This document shows, piece after piece, positions 14,100 through 61,092 of a stretch of 64,000 nt of DNA (position 1 is the stretch's first letter; each line of letters begins with the position of its first letter). Made by a program: the position numbers and the translations under genes. The DNA lies in assembly GCF_009914755.1 (NCBI RefSeq), contig NC_060928.1; one strand, written 5' to 3'. The stretch comes from the human T2T-CHM13v2.0 reference genome, Homo sapiens. The notes below the pieces were generated by a model that did no database searches, was not told the DNA's origin, and saw only the letters and a program-made list of their open reading frames with translations.

Positions 14100-14692
14100 C
14101 CAACCTTTTATTTTCAACCTATTTATATCTTTATATGTAAAGCATGTAGTTTGCACGTAACATTTGATTGAGTCTTGATCTTTATGCAGTCTGGCAGACT
14201 TTGCTTTTTGAGTGTTTAGTCCAACTATAATAAAATTATTGATATGGCTAGACTTATTTCTACTATGTTTCTAGTTGCTTTCCAATTTTCTAATCTATTT
14301 TCTTTTCCATTTTGTTCTACTCCTGAGATTTAGTTTATGTACATAAAAGATTATTTAGTGGTCTATTTTGATTCCTCTTTTGGCTTTCTAAAGATATGAC
14401 TGTATTTTTTTAGTGATTGCTCTGGAAATTACAATACACATTATTTTTTTCATGTGTTTATTGATTATTTGTATATCTTCTTTTTTTATTATACTTTAAG
14501 TTTTAGGGTACATGTGCACAATGTGCAGGTTTGTTACATATGTGTACATGTGTCATGTTGGTGTACTGCACCCGTTAACTCATCATTTAACATTAGGTAT
14601 GTCTCCTAATGCTATCCCTCCCACCTCCCCCCACCCCACAACAGGCCCCAGTGTGTGATGTTCCCCTTCCTGTGTCCATGTGTTCTCATTGT

Positions 14693-18533
<3,841 letters not shown>

Positions 18534-18581
18534 TTATTTTGCTCGTTAGTTGATGCAGTTTCTTCCTAGCCTCGATGGTCT

Positions 18582-19593
18582 TTACAATTTGGCATGTTTT
18601 TGCAGTGGCTGGTACCAGTTGTTCCTTTCCATGTTTAGTGCTTCCTTCAGGAGCTCTTGTAAGGCAGGCCTGGTGGTGACAAAATCTCTCAGCATTTGCT
18701 TGTCTGTAAAGGATTTTATTTCTCCTTCACTTATGAATCTTAGTTTGGCTGGATATGAAATTCTGGGTTGAAACTTCTTTTTTTTAAGAATGTTGAATAT
18801 TGGCCCCCACTCTCTTCTGGCTTGTAGAGTTTCTGCCGAGAGATCAGCTGTTAGTCTGATGGGCTTCCCTTTGTGGGTAACCCGACCTTTCTCTCTGGCT
18901 GCCCTTAACATTTTTTTCCTTCATTTCAACTTTGGTGAATCTGACTATTGTGTGTCTTGGAGATGCTCTTCTCGAGGAGTATCTTTGTGGCATTCTCTGT
19001 ATTTCCTGAATTTGAATGTTGCCCTGCCTTTCTAGATTGGGGAAGTTCTCCTGGATAATATCCTGCAGAGTGTTTTCCAACTTGGTTCCATTCTCCCCGT
19101 CACTTTCAGGTACACCAATCAGACGTAGATTTGGTCTTTTCACATAGTCCCTTATGTCTTGGAGGCTTCATTCATTTCTTTTTATTCTTTTTTCTCTAAA
19201 CTTCTCTTCTTGCTTCATTTCATTCATTTAATCTTCCATCATGGATACCCTTTCTTCCAGTTGATCGAATCGGCTACTGAAGCTTGTGCATTCATCACAT
19301 AGTTCTCGTGGCATGTTTTTCAGCTCCATCAGGTCCTTTAAGGACTTCTCTGCATTGGTTATTCTAGTTAGCCATTCATGTAATTTGTTTTCAAGGTTTT
19401 TAACTTCTTTGCCATGGGTTCGAACTTCCTCCTTTAGCTCAGAGTAGTTTGATCTTCTGAAGCCTTCTTCTCTCAGCTTGTCAAAGTCATTCCAGCTTTG
19501 TTCCATTGCTGATGAGGAGCTGTGTTCCTTTGGAGGAGGAGAGGCACTCTGATTTTTAGAGTTTCCAGTTTTTCTGCTCTGTTTTTTCCCCAT
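18582..19593 (-). pseudogene. L1 ORF1p, disrupted
   Basis: Fragments 19228..19593 (MGKKQSRKTGNSK), 18844..19143, 18582..18911 (..YQPLQKHAKL). Confidence 0.95.
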
Positions 19594-19718
19594 CTTTGTG
19601 GTTTTATCTACTTATGGTCTTTGATGATGGTGATGGACAGATGGGGTTTCGGTGTGGATGTCCTTTCTGTTAGTTTTCCTTCTAACAGTCAGGACCCTCA
19701 GCTGCAGGTCTGTTGGAG

Positions 19719-19846
19719 TTTGCTGGAGGTCCACTCCAGACCCTGTTTTCCTGGGTATCAGCAGCGGAGGCTGCAGAACAGTGGGTATTGGTGAACAGCA
19801 AATGTTGCTGCCTGATCGCTCCTCTGGAACTTTTGTCTCAGAGGAG
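19719..19846 (-). promoter_or_regulatory. ~129-bp L1 5' UTR segment containing the ZNF93 binding region (absent from younger L1PA)
   Basis: Extra block between (-strand) ..ggccgggta and ctccaacagacctgcagc; total element length ~6.14 kb fits the undeleted form. Confidence 0.75.
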
Positions 19847-20164
19847 TACCCGGCCATGTGAGGTGTCAGTCCACCCCTACTGGGGGGTGCCTCCCAGTTA
19901 GGCTACTTGGGGGTCAGGGACCCACCTGAAGAGGCAGTTTGTCAGTTCTCAGATCTCCAGCTGCGTGCTGGGAGAACCACTGCTCTCTTCAAAGCTGTCA
20001 GACAGGGACATTTAAGTCTGCAGAGATTTCTGCTGCCTTTTGTTTGGCTATGCCCTTCCCCCAGAGGTGGAGTCTACAGAGGCAGGCAGGCCTCCTTGAG
20101 CTGCAGTGGGCTCCACCCAGTTCGAGCTTCCTCGCCCCTTTGTTTACCTACTCAAGCCTTGGCA

Positions 20165-20428
20165 ATGGCAGATGCCCCTCCCCCAGCCTCACTGCCACCT
20201 TGCAGTTTGATCTCAGACTGCTGTGCTAGCAATAAGCTAGGCTTCATGGGCATAGGACCCTCCAAGCCATGTGCGGGATATAATCTCCTGGTGTGCCATT
20301 TGCTAAGACCATTGGAAAAGCACAGTATTAGGGTGGGAGTGACCCGATTTTCCAGGTGCCATCTGTCACCCCTTTCTTTGACTAGGAATGGGAGTTCCCT
20401 GACCCCTTGCACTTCCTGGATGAGGTGA
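20165..20428 (+). CDS. L1 antisense ORF0 homolog (87 aa, open)
   Basis: ATG at 20165 gives MADAPPPASLPPCSLISDCCASN...IRVGVTRFSRC, matching recalled primate ORF0. Confidence 0.7.
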   Translation: MADAPPPASLPPCSLISDCCASNKLGFMGIGPSKPCAGYNLLVCHLLRPLEKHSIRVGVTRFSRCHLSPLSLTRNGSSLTPCTSWMR

Positions 20429-20821
20429 TGCCTCGCCCTGCTTCGGCTCACGCTCGCTGTGCTGCACCCACTGTTCTGAATCCTCTGTCCGTCACTCCCC
20501 AGTGAGATGAACCCAGTACCTCAGTTGGAAATGCGGAAATCACCCGTCTTCTGCATCGCTCACGCTGGGAGTTGTAAACTGGAGCTGTTCCTATTCGGCC
20601 ATCTTGGCTCCACCCCCGGCAATATACATTCTTATCACAGTTTTCCTATAGTTAACATTGCGATTTTAATATTCACATAAAATGTAAGAATCTCTCAACA
20701 ATATAATTTCATTTACTTTTTTCCATCCTTCATGCTCCTGTTGTTATATATGTAACTACAATATTTATTATAATCTCTATAATGAAATGTTATTATTATT
20801 ACATTTTTTGCTCTAAAAAAG

Positions 20822-21045
20822 AAGGTCATCAAACTTCCCTTAAGTGCCAGGTAGTAAATATTTTAGGCTTTGATGTCCATATATGTCCTGAATGCATATT
20901 ATTATTTTTGGTTGTTGTTTTTGATTCATTCTTATATTTTGCTTTTGTAATCCTTTAAAAATTAAAAAAATTCTTAGTATCAGGCCATACAGATACAAGC
21001 CAAGAGCTGGATTTGGCCCATGGCCTATAGTGTGTTTGGCACTAT
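20822..21045. mobile_element. MER58-family hAT-Charlie MITE
   Basis: caaactt...gccaggtagtaaatattttaggcttt ... ggatttggcccatggcctatag. Confidence 0.75.
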
Positions 21046-21498
21046 TCCAAAAAGCCAGTTGTCTTTTAAAGAAATTATTGTAAGAAAAAATATAGGTTTT
21101 TATATCTGACCACATATTTACCATATTTAATTTTCTTTGTTTCTTCCTGCAGATGTGAATTTAGTCTGGCATCATTTCCCTGCAGCCTGAACAACTTCTT
21201 TTAACATTTATTATAGTGCAATCTCATGAATTTTCTCTGATTTTAGTTACATAAAAATGTTTTTTAAATTTTATCTCATAAATTCATAAGGCTATATTAA
21301 TATTATTATCTAAGAATTATGATTTTAATATATTCTTATTAAAGGATGTATTGCTGGATATGTAATTTAGGGTTGGCAGTTTTTTGTTTTCTTTCTTTCT
21401 GTCTTAAAGGTACTTTTTTATTGTCTACTGTCATATATTTTTTCCTATAAGAAATCAGTCATAATTATTTACCTTTAAACAAGGTTTCTTTTCTCACT

Positions 21499-34366: not shown

Positions 34367-35768
34367 TGTGAAAATAAGTAATTTGAACATCAAAACTGTT
34401 GGAACTTTAAAATATTTTGAGCCTTAAGGGAATGTGATTATGGGACCTGGGTCATGTAAACTGGCAGCTGTAACCGAGACAGTGACAGTCTTTATTTTTC
34501 TGATTACAGATTAGCCTTCTTCCTTACCTACATTATTGTGTAAATGTCATAAATGACTAAAGGGTACCAGGGAAGACCACTTCCCTCTTAAATGTCAATC
34601 TTTATTATAGATCAGCTACTCTTTCCTCTCTCACACAAAGACTTCATGACTATCACATTGTTTAGGATGGAATGTTAAATACACTCTTAAATTAGAAAGA
34701 AAAAGAAAACAAGCTGTAAAAAAAGGAGAGAAAATAAACTGGACAGAAAAGAAAACAAACTTTAATTATATTGTTGTTAGTCATCGACCAGCCTCGTATA
34801 AACTATGTTATATCCTTCTAAGTGTCTTTGTTTTCTGCCTACAGTAGTAAGAACTTAACTTTTTATTATTATTATTATTATTATACTTCAAGTTTTAGGG
34901 TACATGTGCACAACGTATAGGTTTGTTACATATGTATACATGTGCCATGTTGGTGTGCTGCACCCATTAACTTGTCATTTAGCATTAGATATATCTCCTA
35001 ATGCTATCCCTCCCCCCTCCCACCACCCCACAGCAGTCCCTGGTGTGTGATGTTCCCCTTCTTGTGTCCATGTGTTCTCATTGTTCAATTCCCACCTATG
35101 AGTGAGAACATGTGGTGTTTGGTTTTTTGTCCTTGCGATAGTTTGCTGAGGATGATAGTTTCCGGCTTCATCCATGTCCCCATAAAGGACATGAACTCAT
35201 CATTTTTTATGGCTGCATAGTATTCCATGGTGTATATGTGCCACATTTTCTTAATCCTGTCTATCATTGTTGGACATTTGGCTTGGTTCCAAGTCTTTGC
35301 TATTGTGAATAGTGCTGCAATAAACATATGTGTGCATGTGTCTTTATAGCAGCATGATTTATAATCCTTTGGGTATATACCCAGTAATGGGATGGATGGG
35401 TAAAATGGTATTTCTAGTTCTAGATCCCTGAGGAATTGTCACACTGACTTCCACAATGGTTGAACTAGTTTACAGTCCCACCAACAGTGTAAAAGTGTTC
35501 CTATTTCTCCACATCCTCTCCAGCACCTGTTGTTTCCTGACTTTTTAATGATCACCATTCTAACTGGTGTGAGATGGTATCTCATTGTGGTTTTGATTTG
35601 CATTTCTCTGATGGCCAGTGATGATGAGCAGAACTTAACTTTTTAACTTTGGAGCACTGACCCCATTTCTGTGGAGTCCATGCTTCCCAAATCGCTATTC
35701 CCAGCTTTTCGCTTGAATTAAATTCTTTAAAACTAGATTCCGATCCTTTCGATGATTTCAGGTTGACA
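34367..35768 (+). mobile_element. 3' LTR (contains an L1PA fragment), preceded by a degenerate PPT
   Basis: tgtgaaaataag...ggttgaca; gaatgggaaaaa lies just upstream. Confidence 0.9.
34865..35629 (-). mobile_element. 5'-truncated L1PA3-like (~0.77 kb) inserted in the 3' LTR
   Basis: ORF2 C-terminus (..FSLIGGN) and 3' UTR, (TTA)n tail; perfect 16-bp repeat agaacttaacttttta at 34850-34865 and 35630-35645. Confidence 0.96.
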
Positions 35769-39280: not shown

Positions 39281-40149
39281 TGAAACCGAGAAGTATTAAT
39301 CACTAAAAAGAGACTTTCTTCTTGGGTAGAACTATGTGTAGACAATTTGATCACTAGCATGGCATTTACAAGCAATTATTCTCTTCTGTATCATTATGTG
39401 TTAAGGTTTAGTGCAACTCCAAAGCAGTAGAAAATTTTGGAAACTAGCAAAATATATTATTTCATTTTTGATCCTGGGAATTCTATGGTAGGGGTTATAT
39501 TGGTCCTGGAGTATTATTTGTGTAGCCAACTTAGACTCCTCAGGCAAGTTGTCTGCTCCGTGAAGTTTACCTGAGGCAAATTTTGCTTTCAAGTATTTAT
39601 AGATAGTTAGCACCTGCCAGTCCTAGTTAACTACTTGGCTAACATCTTATAGTGCTTCAGTGAACTCAAGACTTTCTAAAGGCTAAAGCCTAAAAGGTAG
39701 AATTGAAATTGAAGTATCTCCTTATGTTATCTATGGTGGAGAATGTTTTAGCACAGTAAGATTTGCTGTGATTGGGGTGTTACTTTGAGCTAAAGTGACA
39801 ACTGCTGGGCCCAGTATATCATATTTGGAGGCAGAGCTGGAGGATGGACAAAAGAGAAGTGACTGTGAATCATCAGGAATGCATTCCCCTCTCCAAACAT
39901 GTGGCTTTCTCCTTCAACCAAATCATCTACAAAATATGCATTCACTAAAAAGAATAAAAGGAAAAGGAAATATTTTTTAAAATATTTAAAAGGCATAAGA
40001 AAACTAGCCAAAGAAGATCTGAATAAATACCCACTTATCAGGAGTTTTTAATTGGGGAATATCCAAACCATCAGACAGCAAGGGCCTCTTTGCACATCCC
40101 AGCTCTTCCTGAATCAATGATTCATGGTACACTATGGGCTGACTTTGGA

Positions 40150-40675
40150 AAACATTAAAAATAAAATCTGACAATACCAGGTGCTGATGAGGATGTGAAT
40201 CAACTGATTTCTCATACACTATTGGCAGGATTGCAAAGAGGTAGAACCACATTGGATAGTAGTATACAAAAGAAAATATAATGAAAGCATTTTACATGTC
40301 TTACTATGTATACGTTAATAATAAAGTGAACTTGAAGATGGATTTGAGCAAGAATTGTGAGATAATCATGTGTGTGGGAGATGAGCAGAAAGTCTTTAAG
40401 AGAGCGAAATCTTCATCTTTTATATGATGAAGAAAAGTTACAGACATTCTCGGAAAATTGAAAAATAAAAATAAGAGTATATAAGCATGTTATTCAGAAA
40501 TATGAAGGAAAATAGAAAAGCTGAATGTGGCTTTTTCCAGAAACTAGGGATGAAGCTTTGGAAGATTTGGGGGCAGGGAACTGATGTTTTTTAACTCGAA
40601 GACTTGCAGGATTGTTTGACTTTCGGAGTTATGTGCATGTGTAATTTTGATAATAGTAAAAATAATGATTTTAAG
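40150..40675 (+). mobile_element. Ancient L1ME fragments (ORF2 end / 3' UTR)
   Basis: ctgacaataccaggtgctgatgaggatgtg..caactg..ttctcatacact; tgtgcatgtgtaattttgataa. Confidence 0.55.
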
Positions 40676-41899
40676 GGAAGCAAAGTTGTGAATTAATATG
40701 ATTGAATTCTAAAGCCTTCCACTAGAATATTGGTTCTCCAGTAAAAAGGATCATGATGTTTTCTAAGTTTCAATTAGAAAGATTAAAGAAACATAAAAGT
40801 AAATAAGCAGCTAAAGAAATAATACGGAGTGAAACCAGGAGGCCAGTCTAGGAAATCTTCAGTAACAAAATGACTGCATCACTTAGCAGTTCATTTGGCT
40901 CAGGATTTGCTCTCAGGATCCTGGTGAAAGGGATCAGGGGCCTTTTCCCCTTCATCAGGAAGCAGAGAGAACTGTCACACTGTGTGACCTTCTCAGAGTT
41001 CAGAATAGTGAAGCAGACATTTGGGCACATTTTGTGGGTAGAAATACCCTTCTTCAGGGCATGTGTGATGGAACAAAATCCCAAGGAAAGCTCAAAGGTT
41101 CTTTTAACAGAATTGGCAGACATGAACAAACACAGCAAATATGGAGCACTTCATTTTATAAAGTAATGGTTAGTCACTTCTCAGAAGTCTCTAATGAAAC
41201 CTTGATGAGTGGCTATTGCGTTCTGTGGCTGACAAATATGGAGACAGAAAAAAGTACATGGGAAGAAGAACATTTTTTACCCATTGGATGCTGCATATAT
41301 CCATGCCTTAGGACTAAGCACAATCAAAGACTCCCAAAGGAATACAAAATGGAAAGCTGGAGAACCTCCAGAATCTGAGAAAAGGATAGAGGAGTCACAG
41401 GAGAGAAGAGAAGGGGAAGAGGAGAGCAGATGGAAGGAGATAATGATTTAGACCTGCAACAGGTCTCTTGAGGTCCTTGAGAAAGTTTTGGGAAGTATCT
41501 AAAAATAACGTGCAGTTCTTTTTGGATAATATCAGACAGTACCTGAGGGAGCTAGGAGGCAGCAGAAATGGGATTTGTGTGATGTTGCTTCCAGAGGCTG
41601 CTACCTTAGGAAGAATTGACTAATATCTATGAATGATTCTTTGTGAAACACACACATCACCTTGCGTTTGGAATGTTAGAGAAGACAACTCATTCTTCCA
41701 TGCCAGGCTTGGGCTTTAAATAAGACAATTCTGCTTTGTTCTGCAATAAAATAAGCCTCTAATGACTTTGAGATGACAAAATAATATATGACAATGCTTC
41801 GCTGAATGAATGGCAACATGGGAAAAAGAGAAAACAAATGACTCCTAACACTTCTGCCTCCCAGCAGGTCCTTATTTCTCCCACCTCTTTCCTCCTTCT

Positions 41900-42400
41900 A
41901 GCATTAGAGCTGTTTCTAAAAAAGGCAATATTAATCCCTGCTTTGAAACCCTTGATTTTACAACTAAATGGAAACTCCATAGCAATGCAGTACTGCCTCA
42001 TTCCCCCTTCCCAGCATTGTATCAATTTCCCCCACAGCTTGCATTCTAGATGTTCTTAACTTGGCATCATGGGACCAGCCCACTTTCCATGTAAGATATC
42101 ATTTGTACTTTTGTTTTAAAGCCAAGTTCAATACCACCTCTTTTCTGGTGCTTTTCTTTACTTCCTCAGGCAGAGTTCATTACTTTTGGTGCAATGTCCC
42201 TGTAGATGACTTAATACCATTACATGTATATAATTGCATTGTGATTATCTATTTATGCATATATTTCTCCCACTAATTTGAGTTCCTCAAAGATAGAAAA
42301 CATATTTGATTTATTAATTTTTTGGTCCCCAGTATATTCCACAGTCCCTGACGGCAGCAAGATGGCTCATATAAGTTTGCTGAAGTTATTAATGAATGCA
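41900..42400 (+). mobile_element. L2 3' fragment
   Basis: tctcccactaatttgagttcctcaaagatag...gtccccagt...gctcatataagtttgctgaa..aatgaatg. Confidence 0.65.
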
Positions 42401-44694
42401 TGAGAAATGGAGATTTTTCACATCAAAGGATAAGAAGGATGCTACAAGGTATTCTAAGTGCTTGACTGTAAATCATAGTCAATCTGGAAAAAGTTCTCAT
42501 TTTGTTCTGCTGCTTTTAGTCCCAATTCATTAGATATTTGTCTTTGTGTCTGTCCCAGTCATTCTTGTGGCTGAATGTCCTTTGTTTCTACTACAACCAT
42601 ATTGTGTTTGATGGGTAACAGGCAAACATTTCCAACTGTGCTTTTCAGAGAGGGATAAGGAAGCCCAGTCCTGAAGAACAGAACAAAATAAGGGAGAGTG
42701 GGAGAAGATAGAATTAAACCAAATACAAAGAAAATTGCCATTGTGAGCATTTTATATTAACCTTTTAAAATGATGGATTATCCATTCTGAGCACAAATAT
42801 ATCAATCAGGGGAAATTATAGAGGCAAGGGATATGACAGCAGCTGTGTGGTTTGCGTAATGATTCTGGACTCCCAACATTTCTCAGCTTGGTAGTACAGA
42901 GGATGAGGACTAGGAATTATGTGTGGTTGTGAGAAGCATACAAATGTCTCACATACCAAGGAAAAAGAAAGAACCTAAAGATGAAGTCTTCAAAAAGTTG
43001 CTGGTAAAATGGCTTCTTCCGGATTACTGAAAGAGTTATTTACACTACATCATGACATTTCAATATCTGAGGCATTCCAAATTTGGGACTTTATTATCCC
43101 ATTATTCAAAAAATACACAAATTAGCTATTCTTTGTTCTTAGACAAAGAATATATACATATATGTTATATATGTACGTATGTATATATGTATACATTTAT
43201 TGAATACACATGCTAATATTTAAGGTGTGACAAAGCACTGCAATTGAACACCAAAGAGAACTGAGAACTGACTATTGTTAAATGCTTAGAAAACCTTCTG
43301 TCTACAATTACATACCCTCATTTCCATCTAGCACAATGCTTGGTGTGTATCTGGTTTTCCACAAATGTTGAAATTAATCTGTGGTATTTAGACAGAGGAG
43401 TAAGCATAAAAAATAAGCTCCTAAATTCATATCTGCTGTTTTGAGACCTCCAAATTTGTTTTTCCACCTTTTTAAAAAACAAACTTGGAATATGTTTGGT
43501 AAGAAAATCTGCAATTAAAAAGTAATGCAGAACTTGCAGTTAAGTCCCAGGCTGATGACAAGGGCGGGCCGCAGGTGAGACCATCAAAGGAGCTGGAAGG
43601 CAGTGTGATCACACCCATGAGGCAGTACTTTATATTTTGGTTAATCTTCAAGTGTAATAGCAGGAAAATCTCAAAGAACAGAGAGATAAATAAAGCAAGA
43701 ATTGTTTTTCTCCCTTAGTAGTTAACTATTGGTAATATGCACACAATATATAGTTGCATTCTGATCTAAGTGATTATTAGTCATTCATTCCATGGGCAAT
43801 TTCTGAGCATCTTTTAGCCAGGACTTGCTGCTCTAGATGCATGGAATACATCAGCAAATAAAACAAATATCTATGCCTTCAAAGAACTTACAATGTCATG
43901 GAAAATATAATTTCTAGAGAGTTAGATCTTTGCAATACCCAGAATATTAAAAAATGCTCTTTTAAAAAAATTACATTGTATTCCCCCCTTCTCAATTACC
44001 AGTCCACCTATTTTTTTGAAGTTAAAAGCTCAAAAATGCCAGAGACCACATGAAATGTACATTTATCGTTAAGTTAAAATATGTATTTTTTAATTTTAAA
44101 CATGACAGTAACCTCTCCCATCAAAGGGTGCAATCTTCTGCTAAACCTGTATTTCTGTCAGATCCCAATCACTCTTTAAGGTGGGAGAACAACTGTAATA
44201 ATTTACTTATATTTTTGTATTGAGAAAATTGCCTGTTCAGGAAGAATTTTCTTTACTCTTATTGGTCACAGAGCATAGGACCATTACAAGCTTACTCCTC
44301 TTCTAGAGAGACAAAAATTCGATGAACTATTATTTGTGGTTAATACTGTATTAACTTGTTCAAGGACGAAAAAATGAAAACATCACAGCATAGAAAAATA
44401 AACGACTGTCCATTGTAATGTCACTACGCAAAGGCTAGATATTTGGCTGAGACATGTGGCTTGTCATACAAAAGCTTTGCATTGATTAATTAGTGGAGAT
44501 AATATAGAACAAACAGCCTTTAAATATTTGACTTTTTTTAAACACTCATCACTGAAAACCTTTTAAGGTCAGGAAGTCTAGGATTATTTTCATGGGTCTT
44601 TCTCCATAAAATTTTAGCACTCAAGAGTTTGTGCAGGCAGAGTATATATAGGTTTCAGAATAGATCCTTATTGTAGAGTTTTGAAAATATTAGC

Positions 44695-45200
<506 letters not shown>

Positions 45201-45285
45201 AAGCTGATTGTCAAGCCAAGAGCGTACATAAATTTTTAAGGGACTGGAAGACTTACTAGGGTTTCAAGTATTTTCAATATATTTT

Positions 45286-45432
45286 ATATGTGTGTGTATG
45301 TATGTATGTGTGTGAATGTATATATATATATCTCCTGTGTTAACATATATATTTGTGTAAACAAATATGTGTATGTATATCCTGTGTTAACAAATACATA
45401 TATATGTATATATATCCTGTGTTAACACAGGA
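45286..45432. repeat. TA/TG-rich low-complexity array with three tcctgtgttaaca copies
   Basis: Copies at 45333, 45380 and 45415. Confidence 0.85.
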
Positions 45433-45605
45433 AAGCAAATATAACATACATTCAGTATATTCTGTGTAAAAGACTATATTGTGGCCAGCAGATCATAAAT
45501 AAGAGTACAAAAATATAAATTCATATGAACGCTTAATAAAGTATTTTGTGAAATAAATTCATTTCAGAGCAAAGAAAGCTAAACTGCTCTAAAGTTGAAC
45601 CCATT

Positions 45606-45939
<334 letters not shown>

Positions 45940-47859
45940 TTATACCTTTAAAACTAATATTGTTTGGCTTTATAGTGTGCATACAATAAATGGAAGGTAG
46001 AGGGTTTGGCAAAAAAGATATGAACAGGCATGCATTTCTGGGCTACATGATTTTGTGCTTGATGGTTTAGGTTTCTACTGTATATTTCCTTTAAAGAAAA
46101 TCTTATTTTCTAACATAAAACCTCAGCAGGCCTGCACTTAGCTAACAAGGGGAAAACTCTGTCCCAGTTTTCCATAATACATTCACGAAGGGATTTGAAA
46201 CAACCAACAGTTATTGCAGAGAAAAATGAAAGAATGTTGTTTGCTGGCATTTTTTAAAATAAACACAAAAGTTCAAGCACTATAGCTATTAAGCTCTTTG
46301 TAGGCAACATAAACACTGGCTTATTTCTGACCCCCTATAATCCTAAAATCAAGCCCAGCCTTCATTTTCTGTTGTAATTTTTCCTGCAGTACCCCAGACA
46401 CCAGGAGCTCATGAGTCAGGATCACCAGCCTTGAGTCTCAGCTAGATTCCTGCAGTAGCAATATTGGGGCTAAGGCTTCATTTTATCTCTCTTGGTTGAG
46501 AAATATTATATAATATCTACCTTCTTTTCTACTCTGCTTAGTCTAAAGAGAGGTCCTTTTCTTTGGGGGAAAAAGTGTCATTTCTTCTTAGGTTCTTTTT
46601 TTCTCAGAAAAGGAAAGAGCATATCAGGGGAGGATGTGGTTGACATATTTGTCTTCCATGTGAACAAGGGGAAGGAAATACTTTTCAAGTCATAGTTTTA
46701 TTTATCCAAGGTCTCCTGGGATATTATAACAGAGCATGTGATCATTGTGCTCAAAGGAACCTCAAGGGAGCCATCTACTCCCTGCCTCTCAACAGGCTAC
46801 TTATAAACCACCGCACAGAAAGGTGCAAATGGAGCTGTATAATGGTTCTGGGGATGAAGTTTTCACTTCTCTTGGTCCTCCTCGGTCAAGATATTTGCCT
46901 TGTTTTGCCTGAAATCCTTCCTGCCATCATCAAATAACTTAAAATAAAAATCTGCTCTCAATAGAGAGACGAAAACAACCAACCTCTATCATCTGAGTAA
47001 TATCCTCTCTGGTTATTTTTAAATACTATAATAGCACAATGAACCTGAGGCACCAGGAAGAGGCAATTTCCTAAATGGATATGGAAGCCTTGAAGAGGAT
47101 GATGTATTGGCGAATGTTACTCTACTAGGTCCATTTACGCAGTTACAACAGGCCCCATAATCACGAGTGACCAGTGCAAACTCACAGCTGAACACAAGGC
47201 CAGAGAGGCTTTACTCCCACCTAAGGTCTTGAGCCAACAATGAAGGCGCACAACAGATGCTCAGTACTAACAAAGGCTATCAACCCCAGTGATACTGAGG
47301 CTCATTTATAGAGAGATAGATATTGGTAGGGCGGGTGGGAAGGAAGGCAAAGCTAACCTGAAACATCTATGAGCAAACATCATGAGGCAAGGGTTATTTT
47401 TTATGTTTTGAGTTTTACTTGTGGGTGCTTAATACCTATTAAATAAGTAATGATAATTAATACTTACCTACACCACAGTGGTGATTTGCACCTTAATTGA
47501 GTGATTTGCACCTTTGTAGAGCTCTATAGATGAAAGCTGAAGTGCATAGGACATGCAAAGCACTTTTTTTGAAATATAATTTTAATTAGTTAAAATTTAA
47601 GATTTAGTTTCTCTTGATAAGAATAATTTTAGGAGTGTGGCTAAAGCACTTAATCTTTAATCTGGACCTTAGTTTTTCCATATGTAATGCAAGAAGGTTG
47701 AAATAGATGATCTCTAAGGTCCCTTTTAGCTCTAACATTCTGTGATTCTAATTAACTGTACAGATGGAGACTGATAGAATTTTGGATCTGGAAGAGATTC
47801 TAGAGTGGATTATATAAAATTGTTCTTCTGACAATCACGGAGGCATTTAAAAAATGATT

Positions 47860-48070
47860 TCATTTATTGAATGTTTATTATGTGCCAGGCATGATAAAAA
47901 CCACCTTCAAATATTCTCTCATATGCATCTCTGTAAAGTTCTGTGAGGTAGGCACAGGAAACTGAGGCTCAGGAAAACTAAGTAAGTTGCATAAGAACAG
48001 ACAGAAAATGACAGAACAGAAGCTCAAACCCAGTTCTCTCTGACTCCAAAATCTATGCTCTGTACCATGA
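47860..48070 (-). mobile_element. MIR
   Basis: catttattgaatgtttattatgtgccaggca...ggaaactgaggctcag...tctgactccaaa. Confidence 0.8.
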
Positions 48071-49395
48071 TTAAGCTGTCTTTGGCATGGCTTCTCCATA
48101 ATCTCTGTGCCTGGGGAAACTCTAAACTTGCCCTAACACACCACCTAGTCACCTCAGGCCTTTCCTGCTTTCCCTCAGCTCAGAGCCAGGATTCTTTTCT
48201 TTTCAGAGAACCTACGCTCTTATAAGTGAGAAAGGAGAGCCTTATTTTTTCTTAGTGTTTATGCACCAATATCTGTGCAGGCAGAATAAGACAAGTGACT
48301 AGTTGTAACACGATAGATTTTTCTTTGGAGCTTTAGCTGGGTTAACATGGTATTCTAAATTCCTGCTTCCTTGCAGGAGCCCAGTAGCTTTACATAAGCC
48401 ACTGAGGTGTAGGGCATTCTCCTTCACTGTGGACTGACTAGCAAGGATCTCTCCAACAGGCACTTGCCTCTCTTTCTCTCCTCCTCCCTTTGTTCCTTTG
48501 CCCACTATGTAAGCAATTAGTACAATTGAATCCTTAATAAGCCAATTTAGTCCAGCCCACGTAGCTATTTTGCTCCTAATAAATCAATTAATTCAGCTCA
48601 CATTGAGGGGACTGTCATGTTTACAATATCACAGTCAGCGTCTATATATTTGTGCAAGAAATAAGATGGTAAGGAGTATTTTTAGAATAAAATTTCATTT
48701 TTCTCTTTGTGGTGGAGGGGCTGTGTGTTGTGCTGTTGATGCTTCTGCTGCTAGGACTTCTTTGTCTTAACCAAAGGCTTGAGAAAATGACATAGCAGAC
48801 ATTTATGAGACGTGTTTCATGGAGTTGGAGTGAACATGCAAAAAAGTCCATAGAGCTTTGTTTATATTGGGTGCCAGAGATTTGAACAAGGATGGAACAA
48901 CCCTTTTGTGGTAGCAGCTCTCAGTGCTTTCTCCACAATCCTATAGGGCTAGGTGGATCCCATTAAAGGTCCTAATAGCTAAAACTTATCTTCAAATTAC
49001 CTTTAGTTGGTAGGAATTATGACTACATACTCAGTCTTTTGATTTCTCCAACCATGTTAGCAAGGTGAAGTTTCATCTTACTAAGTTAAGATTTGAAAGC
49101 TTTGGTGTCAAATATTCCCTTGGCACTACCCTATAATGAAGAAGGTTTAGGAGTCACACATACAAAGTGGACTTAAAGAGTTTCCTTGATAAGTAGCACT
49201 AATGGATCAATAGTGGGGTGTGGTTGCTGACACAGCCCATTGGTCAAATACCTAGAGTGAAAGGCTTAAGGCATACATTTCTCTGCATTTTCTAGATAAT
49301 TAGGCTCAGTACAGGGAGCCCAGAGACTCCTATTTTAAGGAAAATAATGTTAAACCTTAGTGTATTCTGGGGAGAGTATCAAAATGGTGGATGAA

Positions 49396-50006
<611 letters not shown>

Positions 50007-51389
50007 GTGAGTAGATTAGAAATTCTACCAAATGAGTAGTTGTGGAAGGATAGTGACTGATTTGTTTAGAAAGAGGAAGGTTTGTTTGGGGCAGAGTCCT
50101 TGCCCTGGGAAAGGTGAAGCAATATTGAATGACTTCAAGTATTTCAGCCCTTTCATGTGGAAGAGGGATCAAACTCATTCAGTGTGACCCTAGAGATAAA
50201 ACTAGGGTCAATGAGTGTAAATAAGAGACAGCCAGATTACAGTGACGTATAATGATATGCTTTCTAATAGCTCCAGCTGTACAGACACAGGAGATGCTAA
50301 GTTCTCCAACTCTAGAGACGAGTAAGCAGAGACCGAGTGTCCAGGCTGCAGGAATATTATAGGGTTAGGTTTGGTGGGAAGGGGTGGGAAACTACTCATA
50401 TTTAGTTTTCTTTCTATGAAAGAAGGGTCACAATTCTATAGTTTATCTCCTCACTAGAAATATAAGCCATAGTTGTTTGAATTCCCTGAAAAACAGCTTG
50501 AGCTTAATAAAAAAGAATGAGAAATCCAAGGGCTGCCACAGTGGCAAGCCCAGGCTTTGATTGCTGCTGCAGGAACCTGCCCTCCATGCTGATCTCTGCA
50601 CTGTGGCTGTCAATTTCCCCTCATTTGGTGAAAGTCTAAAAACCAGGGCCTGGTATAGCATGGCATGGTACCAAATATTGGACTACTCTTTGTCTCTTGA
50701 AGAGTCATTTTGCCAGATACTACTCAGAAAATTTGCATTCAGGCTGCCAAACTGGGTAAGGCAATAGCATTGGGTAAGTTTGGGTCACTTGTTAGAAAAG
50801 ACAGTCATGTGGGAGTACCATGGAATAGCTGTTTTTTCATAACCTCTTCAACTAATTCAAAAGTTAGAGTAAGGCTCTATTACTAGGTAGAACAAAGCAC
50901 ATGGTACAAATTTATAAAAGACACACCCAACATTATGCATCCAGAATGAGAAGGTTTTTCCCTTTTGAGAATTCTAATGATTTTATTTTGCCTTCCTTTA
51001 GTTTTGAACCACTATCCTTGGCTAAAAGGTGAATTAAATTGCCCCAGTGTTCAACTGTTTGTTCATGCAAATAAATGAAATCTCTCTGTGAATTCTATTG
51101 TTAACATAAAAACCTAATGTTGAATTCTTAGTTACATTTAACATCTTACCACAGATAACATCACAACTATTAATTAGTCGTATTCCTTTTATATTTCAAT
51201 TGAAATAAAGATAAAAATTGCAGATTACAAAAAGGAATTTGTGATCTTGGAAATGTTAAGAAGGTTTTCCCTGGAAGCTAAGTTTAATAAAGATCTGTGG
51301 CTTTTTGCATTGTAAGTAGAATAACATGATTGCAACCTAAATCCTATTTTTTTTTCAAATTGAGAAAATTTTTGCCTCTTTGAAATAGG

Positions 51390-51700
51390 TTGTATTATTT
51401 ACCTATGCCAAGTTATGCTGCAGTAATGAATGACTCCAAAACATCTGTCACTTAAAACAACAAATGTTTATTGCTTATCCCCATTACCCATTCCCTGTGG
51501 GGTAGCCCATCTGGAAGGTCTCTGCTCCAGCTCCTACTTATTCAGTGATGCAGGTGGATTGAGGAACGGCAATATGGGACCGCAGAACTCATGACAAAGC
51601 ATTGTCACTTCCATTCATATTCCATTGTCACCAAGTCATTGGTGTGAGGTCAGTGAGTGGGGTAGGAAGGGGGCTAGAAGCATCAAAGGGAGACTTAAAA
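51390..51700 (-). mobile_element. Old MaLR LTR (MLT1J/K/L-like)
   Basis: gttatgctgcagtaatgaa..ctccaaaacatct..cttaaaacaacaaatgtttatt...gtcacttccattcatattccattg. Confidence 0.6.
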
Positions 51701-53389
51701 TGTGCCAAAAGTCATTGTGATCAAATACATCCTGGAAACATTTTGCTTCATCTGCTTTGCTCTTTCTCAACTACTTGACTGATATGATCAATTGCATGAT
51801 TTTGCCAAGCCACCAATATTTCATCATTTGTTACTGTGTCCTCAGCCTTTGGTAACCTCAGATTATTGGCCTGCAAAATGGCGGTTTAATAAGCTTTCAC
51901 TGTGAATAACTAGGGAATGTGGTACTGTGCAAGGTTTTCTCTTTTCCCTAAAGTACAAAAACACAGTACTACACAAAGCCCCTACATGTATTTTTCTTAT
52001 TAATACTTCATAGTAAATGGATATTAATTCAGGTTACTATAAATTACAGTGAAGCATTTAAACTACTATGGAATTACACCTCGTAGCCACCTGAATACCT
52101 GGAGGGTTGCTGGAGAGTAATGTGATTATCACAAGCAACACCAGAGGAAATAATGTAATTTGTTGCCTACTACAAAATGCTATCCCATTTTTCTAAGAAC
52201 CTTGGCAGGTTGAAAGAAGTTCTTTTAAAGTTAGTTTATTCAATTAAAAAAATTATCTCACCATTTCCCCCTTTCCTTCCTCACCCTTAAGACCTTTAAC
52301 AAGCAGGTGTAAAATTCAGCAAGTAAGCTTGTTGAGGACTTTCTTGAAGAGAAAGCTTTTAGAATTAGCTAGGATAGCTATATTCTGGAGAGCATTTATA
52401 AGATTCCTGTCCAAGAATTTGTGATTGCTTACTTTGAAGTAATTTAGTTTGAAATTTAAATTAAGATAGATAGAGAGATAGATAAATGAAAAGAGGGCAG
52501 AAGGGAGGGAGGGATGAAGGAAGAAAAAGAGAAGGAAAGGGAGAGTGGGATCGAGAGAGTGAGACCATGTGATCAGAGAGCTACAAGATTATCTTTCCTG
52601 GTAACATAGATTTATCAAAGCACAGAAGATTATAGGAGTGCCAGGTGCTGTATGAAATGGATTATTTTCTTCCATTAGAAAGTAACACCAGTTGACAGGT
52701 TTTACTTAAGTAAAAAATTAAGTAGCTCTTACTTAATTTCTCACTATAATCCCTGAAGTGGGAATGGTCTGTTCTCTTCTTTGGCCATCCCACTAACCTG
52801 AAAACATTGGAATGGTATATAAGTAGGTATGCGGGTTGCTGAGGGATCTCATGTTGGTGGTTGCTAGTTTGTTCTCTGGGTTCTTATTCTTTGCCTGAAT
52901 GCCTAGAATAGAATCTTAGCTCCCTTTGAAACAATTTGTCCCTCAGGAGCCATAGCATTCATATAGTATCTCCTTTTTCAAATTTCAAGGCACCACTGTG
53001 CATTTTCTACCACCTACCTGTTTGCATATAATATTCACCCAAAAATGCTCTTTTGAATTAAAACATAATGAAACAAAAATTAGGGAAATGGCTCAATATG
53101 AAAAAGCAAGCCAATACATTCATGGTCTCACCACTGAATTACAATTTCACAATTTTAAATGCAATTTGTGATTTCTTTCCATATCCAATCACTAAAATAC
53201 CCTCAGGAGTTAGGAGAACAGAGAAAATACATATATATATCATCATTACTGTCTTTTAGTTTCTTACCTGAAAATTCAGATGCCTCCTTGGAACTTCTCT
53301 ATTGCTGAAACATTTCACATATTCAGCCTCTCAACGGTTAATAATTCTATTATCAGCTGCATGCCAGTAATTTAATTCAAGACACACAC

Positions 53390-54230
53390 TGAAGGGAGAG
53401 TAGATGGAACTTGCTGGCAGATTTGTACACAGAATGTTAGAGAAAGCAAAGAGTCAAGGATGGCTCCAAGGTTGCCTGGCATATGGCTGAACAGTGGTAT
53501 CTTTACTTAAATGGGGACATTGTGGAGAAGCTGGGTGTGGGGTAAAGGAATATCAATAATTCATTTTTGGACATGTTAAGTTTAAGATGTTGAATGGGCA
53601 ATTGGACATGCAAGTCAGAAACTCACAGAAGAGGCTGGGGTTAGAGCTCCACCAGAATAAAGATGTTACTCACTGGGATGAGACTGGATGGCTTTACATA
53701 GGAGAGGGTGTAGAATTGAATAAAGGAGGTCTTTGGACCAAAGGAATGAACAGTCAACAAAAGAGACAGGAAAGGAGAATTTTGGTAGATAGGGAAGAAT
53801 GGCTTGAAAAAAGAAGGAGACAATGTAAATATGTCTTCCAAGAAGTTTTGTCAAAAGTGGGCCAGTGAAATGGGAGAAGCTGGAAGGAAAACCTGGTGTT
53901 ATGGGAGAGGCTGTTTTTTAAGATGAGAGATATTATATAATGTTTACATGCTGATGAAATCATCCAATAGAAGAAACTAAAAATAAAGGAGAAATCAGGA
54001 TTGAATGTGGGAGCAAAGATTTTGCATATTTAAGAGGTGATGGAAATCCAATGACAGGTGAAAGGATTGGTCTTAATAGAAGAGACACTTCACCCATTGT
54101 GATAGGAAGAAGACAGAGTATGTGGTGAGAGACGCTGGGGGAATGGGGAAGATGAGGATATAGACTTCTGGTTGCTTTTAGTTTCTAAGTAAATGATTAA
54201 ACATGTTTTATCAGCTGAGACTAGACTGAA
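53390..54230 (-). mobile_element. L2 fragment
   Basis: gagtcaaggatggctccaaggtt...ttttggacatgttaagttt...gggcaattggacatgcaagtc. Confidence 0.75.
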
Positions 54231-54333
54231 GATTGGGGTGGAGAGCCAAGATGGCCGAATAGGAACAGCTCTGGTCTACAGCTCCCAGCATGAGCGACGC
54301 AGAAGATGGGTGATTTCTGAATTTCCATCTGAG

Positions 54334-55282
54334 GAACGCAGTCCCTCACCAGCAACGGAACAAAGCTGGATGGAGAATGACTGACGAGTTGAGAGAAGAA
54401 GGCTTCAGACGATCAAACTACTCTGAGCTACAGGAGGAAATTCAAACCAAAGGCAAAGAAGTTAAAAACTTTGAAAAAAATTTAGACGAATATATAACCA
54501 GAATAACCAATACAGAGAAGTGCTTAAAGGAGCTGATGGAGCTGAAAGCCAAGGCTCGAGAACTACGTGAAGAATGCAGAAGCCTCAGGAGCTGATGCAA
54601 TCAACTGGAAGAAAGGGTATCAGTGATGGAAGATGAAATGAATGAAATGAAGTGAGAAGGGAAGTTTAGAGAAAAAAGAATAAAAAGAAACGAACAAAGC
54701 CTCCAAGAAATATGGGACTATGTGAAAAGACCAAATCTACGTCTGATTGGTGTACCTGAAAGTGACGGGGAGAACGGAACCCAGTTGGAAAACACTCTGC
54801 AGGATATTATCCAGGAGAACTTCCCCAATCTAGCAAGGCAGGCCAACGTTCAGATTCAGGAAATACAAAGAACGCCACAAAGATACTCCTCGAGAAGAGC
54901 AACTCCAAGACACATAATTGTCAGATTCACCAAAGTTGAAATGAAGGAAAAAATGTTAAGGGCAGCCAGAGAGAAAGGTCAGGTTACCCACAAAGGGAAG
55001 CCCATCAGACTAACAGCTGATCTCTCGGCAGAAACTCTACAAGCCAGAAGAGAGTGGGGGCCAATATTCAACACTCTTAAAGAAAAGAATTTTCAACCTA
55101 GAATTTCATATCCAGCCAAACTAAGCTTCATAAGTGAAGGAGAAATAAAATCCTTTACAGACAAGCAAATGCTGAGAGATTTTGTCACCACCAGGCCTGC
55201 CTTACAAGAGCTCCTGAAGGAAGCACTAAACATGGAAAGGAACAACTGGTACCAGCCACTGCAAAATCATGCCAAATTGTAA
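54334..55282 (+). pseudogene. L1 ORF1p lacking its N-terminus, disrupted
   Basis: Fragments 54377..54595 and 54722..55282; MGKKQ start absent. Confidence 0.93.
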
Positions 55283-55345
55283 AGACCATCGAGGCTAAGA
55301 AGAAACTGCATCAACTAACGAGCAAAATAACCAGCTAACATCATA

Positions 55346-59658
<4,313 letters not shown>

Positions 59659-59956
59659 GTGACTGTATTTGAAGATAAAGATTTTAAAGAGATAATAAAA
59701 ATAAAATGAGGTATATAGTCTAACTGGTATCCTTATAAGAAGAGGAAATGTGGAGCCACAAAGAGACATTGAGACATTAGAAAAGTGGTCAACGCAGAGA
59801 AAAGACCACGTGACAACACAGCAGGAAGCTGGACATCTGCAAACCAAGGAGAGAGATCTCAGAAGAAACCTCCAGAACTATGAGAAAATAAATTTCTCTT
59901 GTTTAAACAACTTAATATGTGCTATTTTGTTATGAAAATCCTGGGAAACTAATACA
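59659..59956 (+). mobile_element. MLT1A/B LTR, 3' part only
   Basis: gtgactgtatttgaagata...ccttataagaagaggaaat...cctccagaactatgagaaaataaatt...aaactaataca. Confidence 0.8.
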
Positions 59957-59995
59957 GCCTCTGTCTTCACTACTAGCCTTCAGGATAAGAACTAA

Positions 59996-60292
<297 letters not shown>

Positions 60293-61092
60293 TAGCATAA
60301 GAACTAATCTTATTTTCCTTTTTAGACCTTAGGACTCTTATTCAGCATACCCCCCCAACCTCCATATAATTTTTTCATCTGACTAATGTTACAAATGTCT
60401 AGGATTCTTTACCAGAAGAATGAAAGAACAGGTGAGAATAAATGTTTGCACACAGGTATAAATTATGTTTCTCCCCAGTGTGGATTGGACTACATTTAAA
60501 ATTCCAAGGTCAAAAGTTAGTTACTTTGTATCATTTATTTATTTTCACCATCCAAATCTCTTTCTTCACACGTTTTTGGGGATAATTGTTGGGTGGTAAG
60601 AAATTTGGCAGTGCTTGTAGCAAAAAAGTAGAACTCTAGTGACTTAATTGGCAAAAGATAAAAACTGATGTCCAAACTGATTGACTGAGGGCTTCAAAGT
60701 TATCATGTTTGAACATGCTCCTTTCAGAGTGACACTGACAAAGGCATCATTATACTTTCAATTTAGGTGTAATCAGAAGTTGAGCTCCTTCCTCAGGTTT
60801 CTGAGTGTGGCCAGGACTGGCGCTCTCTTTTCCCTCTCAAATTCCTCCTTTTCTTAAGGAAAATAAATGTGTTTACATGGGCAGACACTTTCAAGTTTTC
60901 TCAGTTCTAGTTAAAACATTTCAATTTAATGTTGCCATACTTTAGCAAACAACAACATAGCTAGGCAGGATGTGATGAATGAAGCCACCTAAATATTTTC
61001 TGTCAACTACCTTTACAGCATGATGCGCATTAAAGGGATCCCATGCCTTGCAAACAGAACTGTAATTTCAATTGACTTACATTTTGTGGTTA

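What the first reader, a model, noticed from the sequence alone, without database searches (positions are those of the whole stretch)
54235..54360. Spliced L1 RNA integrated into the genome (SpIRE97/976-type junction)
Seen: after ~98 nt of 5' UTR the element reads TTTCCATCTGAG|GAACGCAGT (junction 54333/54334). The unspliced L1 in this window has ..CTGAG|GTAC at the equivalent 5' point and ..CCTCCAAAG|GAAC at the 3' point, so the missing 992-nt block (19528-20519 in that copy) is bounded exactly by GT...AG. Established: this matches the donor near nt 97 and the ORF1 acceptor near nt 976 described for spliced integrated retrotransposed elements. Inference: most of the sense promoter, the antisense promoter/ORF0 and the ORF1 AUG were lost before insertion, so ORF1p was probably supplied in trans or in truncated form.
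Basis: partly seen in the sequence, partly recalled or inferred. Interest (0 to 1): 0.8.

Follow-up and report, generated by a model that had tools for sequence, protein, structure and literature searches.

The report
Known spliced L1 insertion, SpIRE(97/976)-7
This is a dead copy of a human L1 retrotransposon made from a spliced L1 RNA; the exact locus is already listed in the 2018 catalogue of such elements, so the finding is correct but not new.

Summary
At 54333/54334 an L1 5'UTR (98 nt, 54236-54333) joins directly to ORF1 codon 23. The unspliced L1 in the same window has a 992-nt block there (20519 down to 19528, minus strand), bounded by GT...AG.

The locus is already published. Larson et al. 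2018 (PMC5860796, S1 Table and S1 Data) list it as SpIRE(97/976)-7, hg38 chr4:149128280-149132829. Their printed filled-site sequence is the window sequence.

- The L1 stops at 58305, about 1.1 kb short of its 3' end and without poly(A). It abuts a 5'-truncated MaLR-type LTR with a 2-nt GG overlap.
- The published 8-bp TSD (one mismatch) is no better than chance, and its 3' copy lies inside that older repeat.
- A tree places the copy at the L1PA4/L1PA3 boundary, the young end of the published "PA4-PA6".
- Both ORFs are broken.
- T2T-CHM13 holds at least 30 loci with this junction. Nineteen are not among the 11 catalogued.

Verdict: real, ordinary, already known.

The parts
54228..54235 (+). 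Published 5' 'TSD' GAAGATTG (Larson S1 Data). I judge it not significant.
   Evidence: an 8-nt match with 1 mismatch is equalled or beaten in 130 of 181 random 600-nt pieces of the window.
54236..54333 (+). L1 5'UTR 'exon 1' (98 nt), from the L1 5' end (GGGTGGAGAGCCAAGATGG...) to the splice donor position.
   Evidence: aligns to FL L1 20616-20520 at 88%.
54329..54338 (+). Splice junction CTGAG|GAACG (54333/54334).
54334..55282 (+). ORF1 from codon 23 to its stop, now broken. The ORF1 frame from the junction reaches a TGA at 54382-54384, directly after a site where this copy reads GACTGACGAG and other copies read GACTTTGACGAG. Further stops follow at 54593-54595 and before 54656.
   Evidence: other copies. 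Pfam: L1 trimerization, RBD-like and dsRBD-like domains in 54656-55279 (E 1e-13 to 6e-63).
55331..58305 (+). ORF2, with endonuclease and reverse transcriptase parts. It has a frame change within 55881-55960 and a stop at 57432-57434. It is cut off at 58305, equivalent to FL 15564 and about 1.13 kb before the L1 3' end. There is no 3'UTR and no poly(A).
   Evidence: Exo_endo_phos E 5.5e-16, RVT_1 E 7.7e-31; no remaining L1 3' part in 15.7 kb downstream or 14 kb upstream.
58304..58305 (+). GG shared by the L1 (..TTCAGG) and the LTR (..CCTGG|TGGGAGG). This is the microhomology at the L1/LTR breakpoint.
58306..58649 (+). 3' 344 nt of an older LTR, lacking about 80 nt at its 5' end. The name MaLR, MST/THE1-like, is recalled and not tool-derived.
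   Evidence: 8401 first-look candidates, of which 40 were scored. Those copies are 74-80% identical, and 3 of the 39 non-self matches end at query position 344, as solo LTRs would; other copies share about 80 nt more upstream.
58650..58657 (+). Published 3' 'TSD' GAAAATTG. It is the first 8 nt of the internal part of the older LTR element, directly after the LTR end CTAATACA.
   Evidence: 36 of 39 other copies run straight across this point.
58650..59659 (+). Internal region and a short remnant of the 3' LTR (ends ...CCTAATACA at 59659) of the same older element.
   Evidence: homology to query position 495; read by eye.
14431..20616 (-). Unspliced full-length L1 used as comparator. The intron-equivalent block is 19528-20519.
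   Evidence: The 3' limit of 14431 is taken from the hub's mask list and was not checked here.

Best explanation
An L1 transcript of the L1PA4/L1PA3 transition was spliced from the 5'UTR donor (G98U99 in L1.3 numbering) to the acceptor inside ORF1 (A974G975). This removed most of the 5'UTR and the first 22 codons of ORF1. The spliced RNA could not make working ORF1p, so it was reverse-transcribed and integrated using L1 proteins with ORF1p supplied in trans.

The result is the element at 54236-58305, catalogued as SpIRE(97/976)-7. It arrived with a crippled promoter and no ORF1 start, and has since decayed with frameshifts and stops in both ORFs.

Its 3' 1.1 kb, poly(A) tail and 3' target-site duplication are gone. 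Most likely a later genomic deletion joined ORF2 to a neighbouring old LTR across a 2-nt overlap.

Shown here: the junction, the GT...AG boundaries, identity with the catalogue entry, recurrence of the junction at other loci, the 3' truncation and the broken ORFs. Inferred: the timing of the splicing (before insertion), trans-complementation (from the paper's L1.3 assays) and the cause of the 3' truncation.
For: The junction and GT...AG block are shown.

The same junction is present at 29 other loci of this genome:
- 20 of 20 fetched loci carry it, with 20 different 5' flanks.
- the catalogued chr15 locus also carries it.
- 8 of 11 further pattern hits carry it.

In the tree these copies are spread along a ladder-like L1PA tree with long end branches, as expected for repeated independent events. 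Splicing at these sites and the need for ORF1p in trans are reported experimentally in PMC5860796 (sections 13 and 15). The L1 identity of the coding parts is confirmed by Pfam.
Against: The usual proof of retrotransposition at this locus is missing. There is no poly(A). The only proposed TSD is at chance level and its 3' copy lies inside an older repeat.

No orthologous or empty allele could be examined, so 'spliced before insertion' rests on recurrence and on published experiments, not on this locus alone.

AGG is shared at both ends of the block, so a DNA-level microhomology deletion cannot be formally excluded from this one copy.
Confidence: 0.95

Rival explanations
1. A full-length L1 inserted here and later lost 992 bp through a genomic deletion between the short AGG overlaps. 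On this reading the resemblance to a splice is coincidental.
For: There is a 3-nt overlap at the breakpoints. The same element clearly suffered at least one other rearrangement at its 3' end.
Against: The breakpoints are exactly the published donor and acceptor. 29 other loci carry the identical junction; the 20 whose 5' flanks were printed all differ. A random deletion would have to hit the same two bases each time.
Confidence: 0.02
2. The internal deletion arose during reverse transcription, by a template jump of the reverse transcriptase between similar short sequences on an unspliced L1 RNA, not by the spliceosome.
For: The first bases of the intron resemble the first bases of the downstream exon. 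This is why the junction pattern at 3 mismatches also hits several dozen unspliced L1s reading GGTAC(A/C)CAG(C/T)TCATC.
Against: All junction copies keep the exon form (GA.. then ..CTCCTCA) immediately after the AG|G, so any switch would be confined to the 3-nt overlap. The boundaries are canonical GT...AG with a pyrimidine tract. PMC5860796 cites earlier work as having identified this splicing event.
Confidence: 0.02
3. On the 3' end only: the spliced RNA was not inserted by normal endonuclease-dependent priming. Instead it was captured at a chromosome break (endonuclease-independent insertion), primed inside ORF2 on a 2-nt overlap. The missing 3' end, missing TSD and lost target DNA would then date from the insertion itself.
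For: The element has no poly(A), no credible TSD, a 3' truncation and a GG microhomology. About 80 nt of the neighbouring LTR is absent and is not found upstream of the L1. The hallmarks of this pathway are recalled from the literature, not read here.
Against: A later deletion gives the same picture and needs no rare pathway. PMC5860796 reports four prematurely 3'-truncated SpIREs among those it curated and could not determine the cause.
Confidence: 0.25

Closest known systems
SpIRE97/976, the 5'UTR/ORF1 spliced integrated retrotransposed elements (Larson et al. 2018, PMC5860796; first noted by Belancio et al. 2006 and 2008, cited there; those two papers are not held and were not read)
   Same: It is the same locus as catalogue entry SpIRE(97/976)-7. 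It has the same donor and acceptor, the same loss of the ORF1 start, and the same 'dead on arrival' reading.
   Different: I do not accept the published 8-bp TSD and TTTC/A cleavage site for this entry. I place the copy at the PA4/PA3 boundary rather than anywhere in PA4-PA6. It is one of the minority that lack the 3' end.
SpIRE97/622 and SpIRE97/790 (intra-5'UTR SpIREs)
   Same: They use the same donor at nt 97 and are also retrotransposed spliced L1 RNA.
   Different: Their acceptors lie inside the 5'UTR, so ORF1 stays intact. Here the acceptor is in ORF1.
Endonuclease-independent L1 insertions (recalled: Morrish et al. 2002; Sen et al. 2007; not read here)
   Same: Shared features are 3' truncation, no poly(A), no TSD, junction microhomology and loss of target DNA.
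   Different: Those features can also be produced by a later deletion, and nothing here dates the truncation.

Membership tests
SpIRE97/976 | L1 5'UTR beginning at or near nt 1 and running to the donor at about nt 97 | tested here: met
   54236-54333 (98 nt) aligns to the first 97-98 nt of the unspliced L1 in the window.
SpIRE97/976 | Direct junction of the donor exon to the ORF1 acceptor exon (A974G975 in L1.3 numbering), with the missing block GT...AG in unspliced copies | tested here: met
   One search shows the GT at 20519-20518 and the AG at 19529-19528 of the comparator. The junction text is identical in form to the catalogued members.
SpIRE97/976 | Listed in the published catalogue | tested here: met
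   S1 Table row SpIRE(97/976)-7 gives chr4 149128280, length 4058. The S1 Data filled-site text equals the window sequence.
SpIRE97/976 | Hallmarks of target-primed reverse transcription: poly(A) tail, flanking TSD, endonuclease-type target site | tested here: not met
   The L1 ends at 58305 without a 3'UTR or poly(A). The proposed TSD is at chance level (130 of 181 controls as good or better), and its 3' copy is internal to an older repeat (36 of 39 copies continuous across it). No other TSD was found in 15.7 kb downstream. These hallmarks are supporting evidence rather than the definition of the class; the paper itself notes four 3'-truncated SpIREs.
SpIRE97/976 | Junction present in orthologous copies (splicing preceded insertion) | not testable with these tools
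   No primate genomes are held.
Endonuclease-independent L1 insertion | Truncation and target-site loss dating from the insertion event, shown by comparison with an empty allele | not testable with these tools
   Only the human filled allele is available.

The most novel reading that the evidence does not exclude
This copy may be a spliced, ORF1-defective L1 RNA that was used to patch a chromosome break (endonuclease-independent insertion). It would have been primed inside ORF2 on a GG overlap and copied to the capped 5' end, with loss of target DNA including the first ~80 nt of the neighbouring LTR. That would explain in one event the absent poly(A), the absent TSD and the 3' truncation that the catalogue's authors left unexplained.
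Probability: 0.2. Interest if true: 0.3.

Novelty: already known. Interest (0 to 1): 0.12.

Why it matters
It matters little for this locus. It is a correct re-discovery of a catalogued element in a gene-free region.

Three points are of modest use to people who curate L1 insertions:
- The published TSD and cleavage-site call for this entry looks wrong.
- The entry can be placed at the PA4/PA3 boundary.
- The 97/976 class appears to be almost three times larger in a complete genome than the 11 catalogued copies. It also reaches into much older L1 copies, so splicing into ORF1 followed by trans-complemented insertion has recurred over a long span of primate L1 history.

Tried and rejected
- **Inversion idea.** I asked whether the missing L1 3' end is the minus-strand L1 fragment at 34860-35630. 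Rejected: that fragment has its own poly(A) and a 13-nt TSD, AAAAGTTAAGTTC, on both sides.
- **L1 3' remainder nearby.** There was no hit to the comparator's last 1264 nt in 58306 to window end plus 10 kb beyond, nor in 40000-54235.
- **Insertion into the LTR with both halves kept.** The ~80-nt LTR 5' part of 8 other copies gives only chance-level hits elsewhere in the window (all with E above 0.01). None lies in the 200 nt before 54236.
- **Chimeric retrocopy with a distant poly(A) plus TSD.** The longest exact match of the 40-nt 5' flank in 15.7 kb downstream is 11 nt. It lies 14 kb away, next to an A-run, but maps 26 nt before the L1 start, so it is not a TSD.
- **Splicing as the cause of the 3' break.** By eye, the L1 side lacks a GT after the break and the LTR side lacks an AG before it.
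- **AU test of 'candidate plus the four PA4-labelled rows as one clade'** (p 1.6e-6). This is uninformative, because those four rows are not a clade on the ladder-like tree anyway.
- **Identity threshold as the reason for omission.** A proxy probe taken from the PA2 copy L001 gave no clean split: uncatalogued C6:84.07M scores 96/100, while catalogued PA4 copies score 92-93.
- **Sources that gave nothing.** The search of earlier findings was not open. The Belancio 2006 and 2008 papers are not held.

Full report
**1. Observation**

The window reads ...GAATTTCCATCTGAG|GAACGCAGTCCCTCACC... with the break between 54333 and 54334. The window also holds a full-length L1 on the minus strand. In sense orientation it reads ...TTTCCAACTGAG|GTACTGGGTT... 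and ...GCCTCTCCTCCTCCAAAG|GAACACAGCTCC....

From the ruler, the first base of the block absent from the candidate is 20519 and the last is 19528. The block is therefore 992 nt, starts with GT, ends with AG, and has a pyrimidine-rich run before the AG.

A gapped local alignment and BLAST agree. 54235-54334 matches comparator 20616-20519 (88%), and 54332-58305 matches 19529-15564 (94.3% over 3979 columns).

AG before the break and G after it are shared by both ends, so the break can be drawn in four registers, and only one gives GT...AG. This overlap is what the splice-site consensus itself produces, so it is not evidence against splicing.

**2. It is a published element**

Larson et al. 2018 (PLoS Biol 16:e2003067, PMC5860796) define SpIREs. 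I read sections 7, 8, 13, 15, 21 and 22, the first part of section 39, and passages found by term. I also searched supplements S1 Table and S1 Data.

Sheet 4 of S1 Table lists 11 SpIRE(97/976) rows. Row 7 reads: PA4-PA6, chromosome 4, start 149128280, length 4058, cleavage site TTTC/A, TSD 8, '5' 1 mismatch'.

S1 Data gives 'Clone 7; L1PA4-L1PA6; SpIRE(97/976)-7: Filled site spans chr4:149128280-149132829'. Its filled-site text begins TTCTGGTTGCTTTTAGTTTCTAAG... and runs through ...CCATCTGAGGAACGCAGTCCCTCACC.... That is the window sequence from 54168 on, as far as the supplement text is shown before it is cut. The length of 4058 fits the 4070 nt of 54236-58305. The finding is therefore a correct re-discovery.

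**3. Mechanism, and what is shown versus inferred**

The paper states the following (abstract):
- The 97/976 event deletes 66 nt of ORF1, including the start codon.
- An L1.3 construct with this deletion makes about 33 and 27 kDa N-terminally truncated ORF1p.
- It does not retrotranspose in cis even with a CMV promoter.
- It is mobilised at low level only when wild-type ORF1p is supplied in trans.
- SpIREs of both classes have reduced promoter activity.

For this locus, 'spliced before insertion' remains an inference. The local support is recurrence:
- A 100-nt probe across the junction found 20 further places in the same assembly that cover the junction (only 40 of 1530 first-look candidates were scored).
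- All 20 fetched loci carry the 5'UTR-to-ORF1 junction at the same base. Nineteen read CTGAG|GA and one reads CTAAG|GA. All have different 5' flanks.
- A 28-nt degenerate junction pattern with up to 3 mismatches gave 67 hits against 0 for the reversed control. Most 3-mismatch hits are unspliced L1s whose intron start (GGTAC.CAG.TCATC) resembles the exon after the acceptor.
- Of 11 further hits that I fetched, 8 carry the true junction. Seven of these have 85 nt or more of 5'UTR, and one is 5'-truncated 13 nt before the junction. The other 3 are unspliced L1s reading GA in place of the donor GT.

Counting the catalogued chr15 copy, this gives 30 junction-bearing loci in the assembly.

**4. Anatomy and state**

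- 54236-54333: 5'UTR exon.
- 54334 onward: ORF1 from codon 23. The codon number follows the paper's statement that the acceptor AG is in positions 2-3 of lysine 22.

In the ORF1 frame from the junction, the first downstream ATG (54370-54372) is followed four codons later by TGA at 54382-54384. At that point this copy reads GACTGACGAG where other copies read GACTTTGACGAG. ORF1 then continues in another frame, with a stop at 54593-54595 and another before 54656.

Pfam finds the L1 ORF1p trimerization, RBD-like and dsRBD-like domains in 54656-55279. It finds the endonuclease domain in 55331-55957, and reverse transcriptase in 55881-57431 and 57435-58304.

ORF2 has a frame change in 55881-55960 and a stop at 57432-57434. 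The element is coding-dead.

**5. The 3' end**

L1 homology stops at 58305, equivalent to comparator 15564. That is about 1.13 kb before the comparator's 3' end, and there is no poly(A).

The next sequence, 58306-58800, belongs to a very abundant older repeat: 8401 first-look candidates, and the 39 other copies scored are 74-80% identical. Three of the 39 end at query position 344, as solo LTRs would. The other 36 continue across it into what is then the internal region.

I recognise this as a MaLR LTR of the MST/THE1 kind. That name is recalled and comes from no call.

Eight copies fetched with upstream sequence share about 80 nt more with each other before the point where the window copy begins. 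The window LTR is therefore truncated exactly at the L1 boundary. The L1 (...TTCAGG) and the LTR (...CCTGG|TGGGAGG) share GG at the break.

The missing LTR piece is not upstream of the L1. The missing L1 3' part is not within 15.7 kb downstream or 14 kb upstream.

The paper says four SpIREs are prematurely 3'-truncated for unknown reasons. I presume this is one of them, but did not see it named.

**6. The published TSD**

S1 Data pairs GAAGATTG (54228-54235) with GAAAATTG (58650-58657), an 8-nt match with one mismatch lying 345 nt beyond the end of the L1.

In my control, an end-anchored match at least as good was found in 130 of 181 random 600-nt pieces of the window. Draws starting between 54000 and 59000 were dropped, and one draw probably overlapped the flank itself.

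GAAAATTG is also the first 8 nt after the LTR end (CTAATACA) of the older element, and 36 of 39 other copies are continuous across it. The published empty site would require the L1 to have carried in the LTR piece and set it down exactly in front of its own natural continuation.

I therefore regard the TSD and the TTTC/A cleavage site for this entry as unsupported. The true 3' junction is lost.

Two readings of the 3' end remain:
- A later deletion joining ORF2 to the LTR. I favour this, at roughly 0.6.
- An endonuclease-independent insertion at a break, at roughly 0.2-0.25.

Only an ortholog or an empty allele can decide between them.

**7. Subfamily and age**

I aligned 54334-58305 with the matching stretch of 21 other junction-bearing copies and the unspliced comparator. 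Ten rows carry the paper's subfamily labels. The locus-to-row assignment rests on chromosome and rough position, checked by sequence for this locus, cat4 and cat5. For L043 only the first contiguous 1059 nt were used. The eight copies were not included.

The careful IQ-TREE tree (23 rows, 3973 columns, GTR+F+G4) is ladder-like:
- The candidate falls in a clade with all four PA3-labelled and both PA2-labelled copies plus C23:56.9M (support 100/99, bootstrap/SH-aLRT).
- It lies outside the PA3+PA2 clade (100/97).
- All four PA4-labelled copies lie outside the clade holding the candidate.

Holding cat9_PA4, C23:56.9M and the PA3 and PA2 rows together without the candidate costs 64.2 log-likelihood units (AU p 1.3e-5). 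That group was named after seeing the tree, so the p-value is only indicative.

The candidate's end branch is 0.020, against 0.021-0.026 for PA3-labelled rows and 0.025-0.033 for PA4-labelled rows. It also shares the CCATCTGAG form of the donor exon with the PA2 and PA3 copies and C23:56.9M, where the other 13 of the 20 loci have an A at that position (12 of them CCAACTGAG).

The copy therefore sits at the PA4/PA3 transition, the young end of the published range. With recalled L1 rates this is roughly 10-20 million years.

**8. Rivals for the junction**

- A chance genomic deletion, or a reverse-transcriptase template jump at the AGG overlap, cannot be excluded from this copy alone.
- Either would have to recur at the same bases in 30 loci.
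- No copy shows a shifted break.

**9. Verdict**

The feature is real, correctly interpreted and already catalogued. The corrections (TSD, subfamily, 3' anatomy) and the wider count of junction-bearing loci are incremental.

Searches for a later, wider SpIRE catalogue and a look into one 2025 preprint found none. Those searches cover only the held open-access library. The two Belancio papers could not be read, so some of the 19 'uncatalogued' loci may be in print there.

Noticed in passing
G000 loci L005, L007, L009, L010, L011, L013, L014, L016, L017, L019, L020 and L052-L059: Nineteen further loci in T2T-CHM13 carry the same 5'UTR-to-ORF1 junction but match none of the 11 rows of the 2018 SpIRE(97/976) table by chromosome and position. 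The 11 loci all have different 5' flanks; flanks of the 8 loci were not compared. In the tree most sit deeper than the PA4-labelled copies. Two (C5:87.68M, C7:96.06M) are only about 75% identical to the window copy, so they are much older. TSDs and poly(A) tails were not examined.
   Followed up: partly
G000 loci L060, L061, L062 (C7:144.39M, C4:55.58M, C18:8.81M): These are unspliced older L1 copies in which the 5'UTR donor reads GA instead of GT. They surfaced only because the start of the intron resembles the exon after the ORF1 acceptor, in roughly 10-12 of 16 positions across copies.
   Followed up: no
window 34860-35630 (-): A 5'-truncated L1 3' end (about 770 nt, 93.9% identical to the full-length copy) with a short A-rich tail and a perfect 13-nt target-site duplication, AAAAGTTAAGTTC. 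It is an independent insertion.
   Followed up: yes
window 14431-20616 (-), RefSeq enhancer 20287-21486: The hub's RefSeq 'enhancer' feature overlaps the 5'UTR (about 20287-20616) of the unspliced full-length L1, so part of that functional-element call is L1 promoter sequence.
   Followed up: no
window 59985-60310: An Alu in minus orientation (poly-T at 60000-60014) is flanked by a direct repeat, ATAAGAACTAATC, on both sides. Read by eye.
   Followed up: no
window 54236-54341: NCBI's repeat mask starts at 54342, so the 98-nt L1 5'UTR exon and the junction itself are unmasked although they are L1 sequence.
   Followed up: no
window 58306-59659: An old LTR element (MaLR-like by recall) has a 5'-truncated 5' LTR, about 950 nt of internal sequence, and only about 50 nt of its 3' LTR left (ends CCTAATACA at 59659).
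   Followed up: partly
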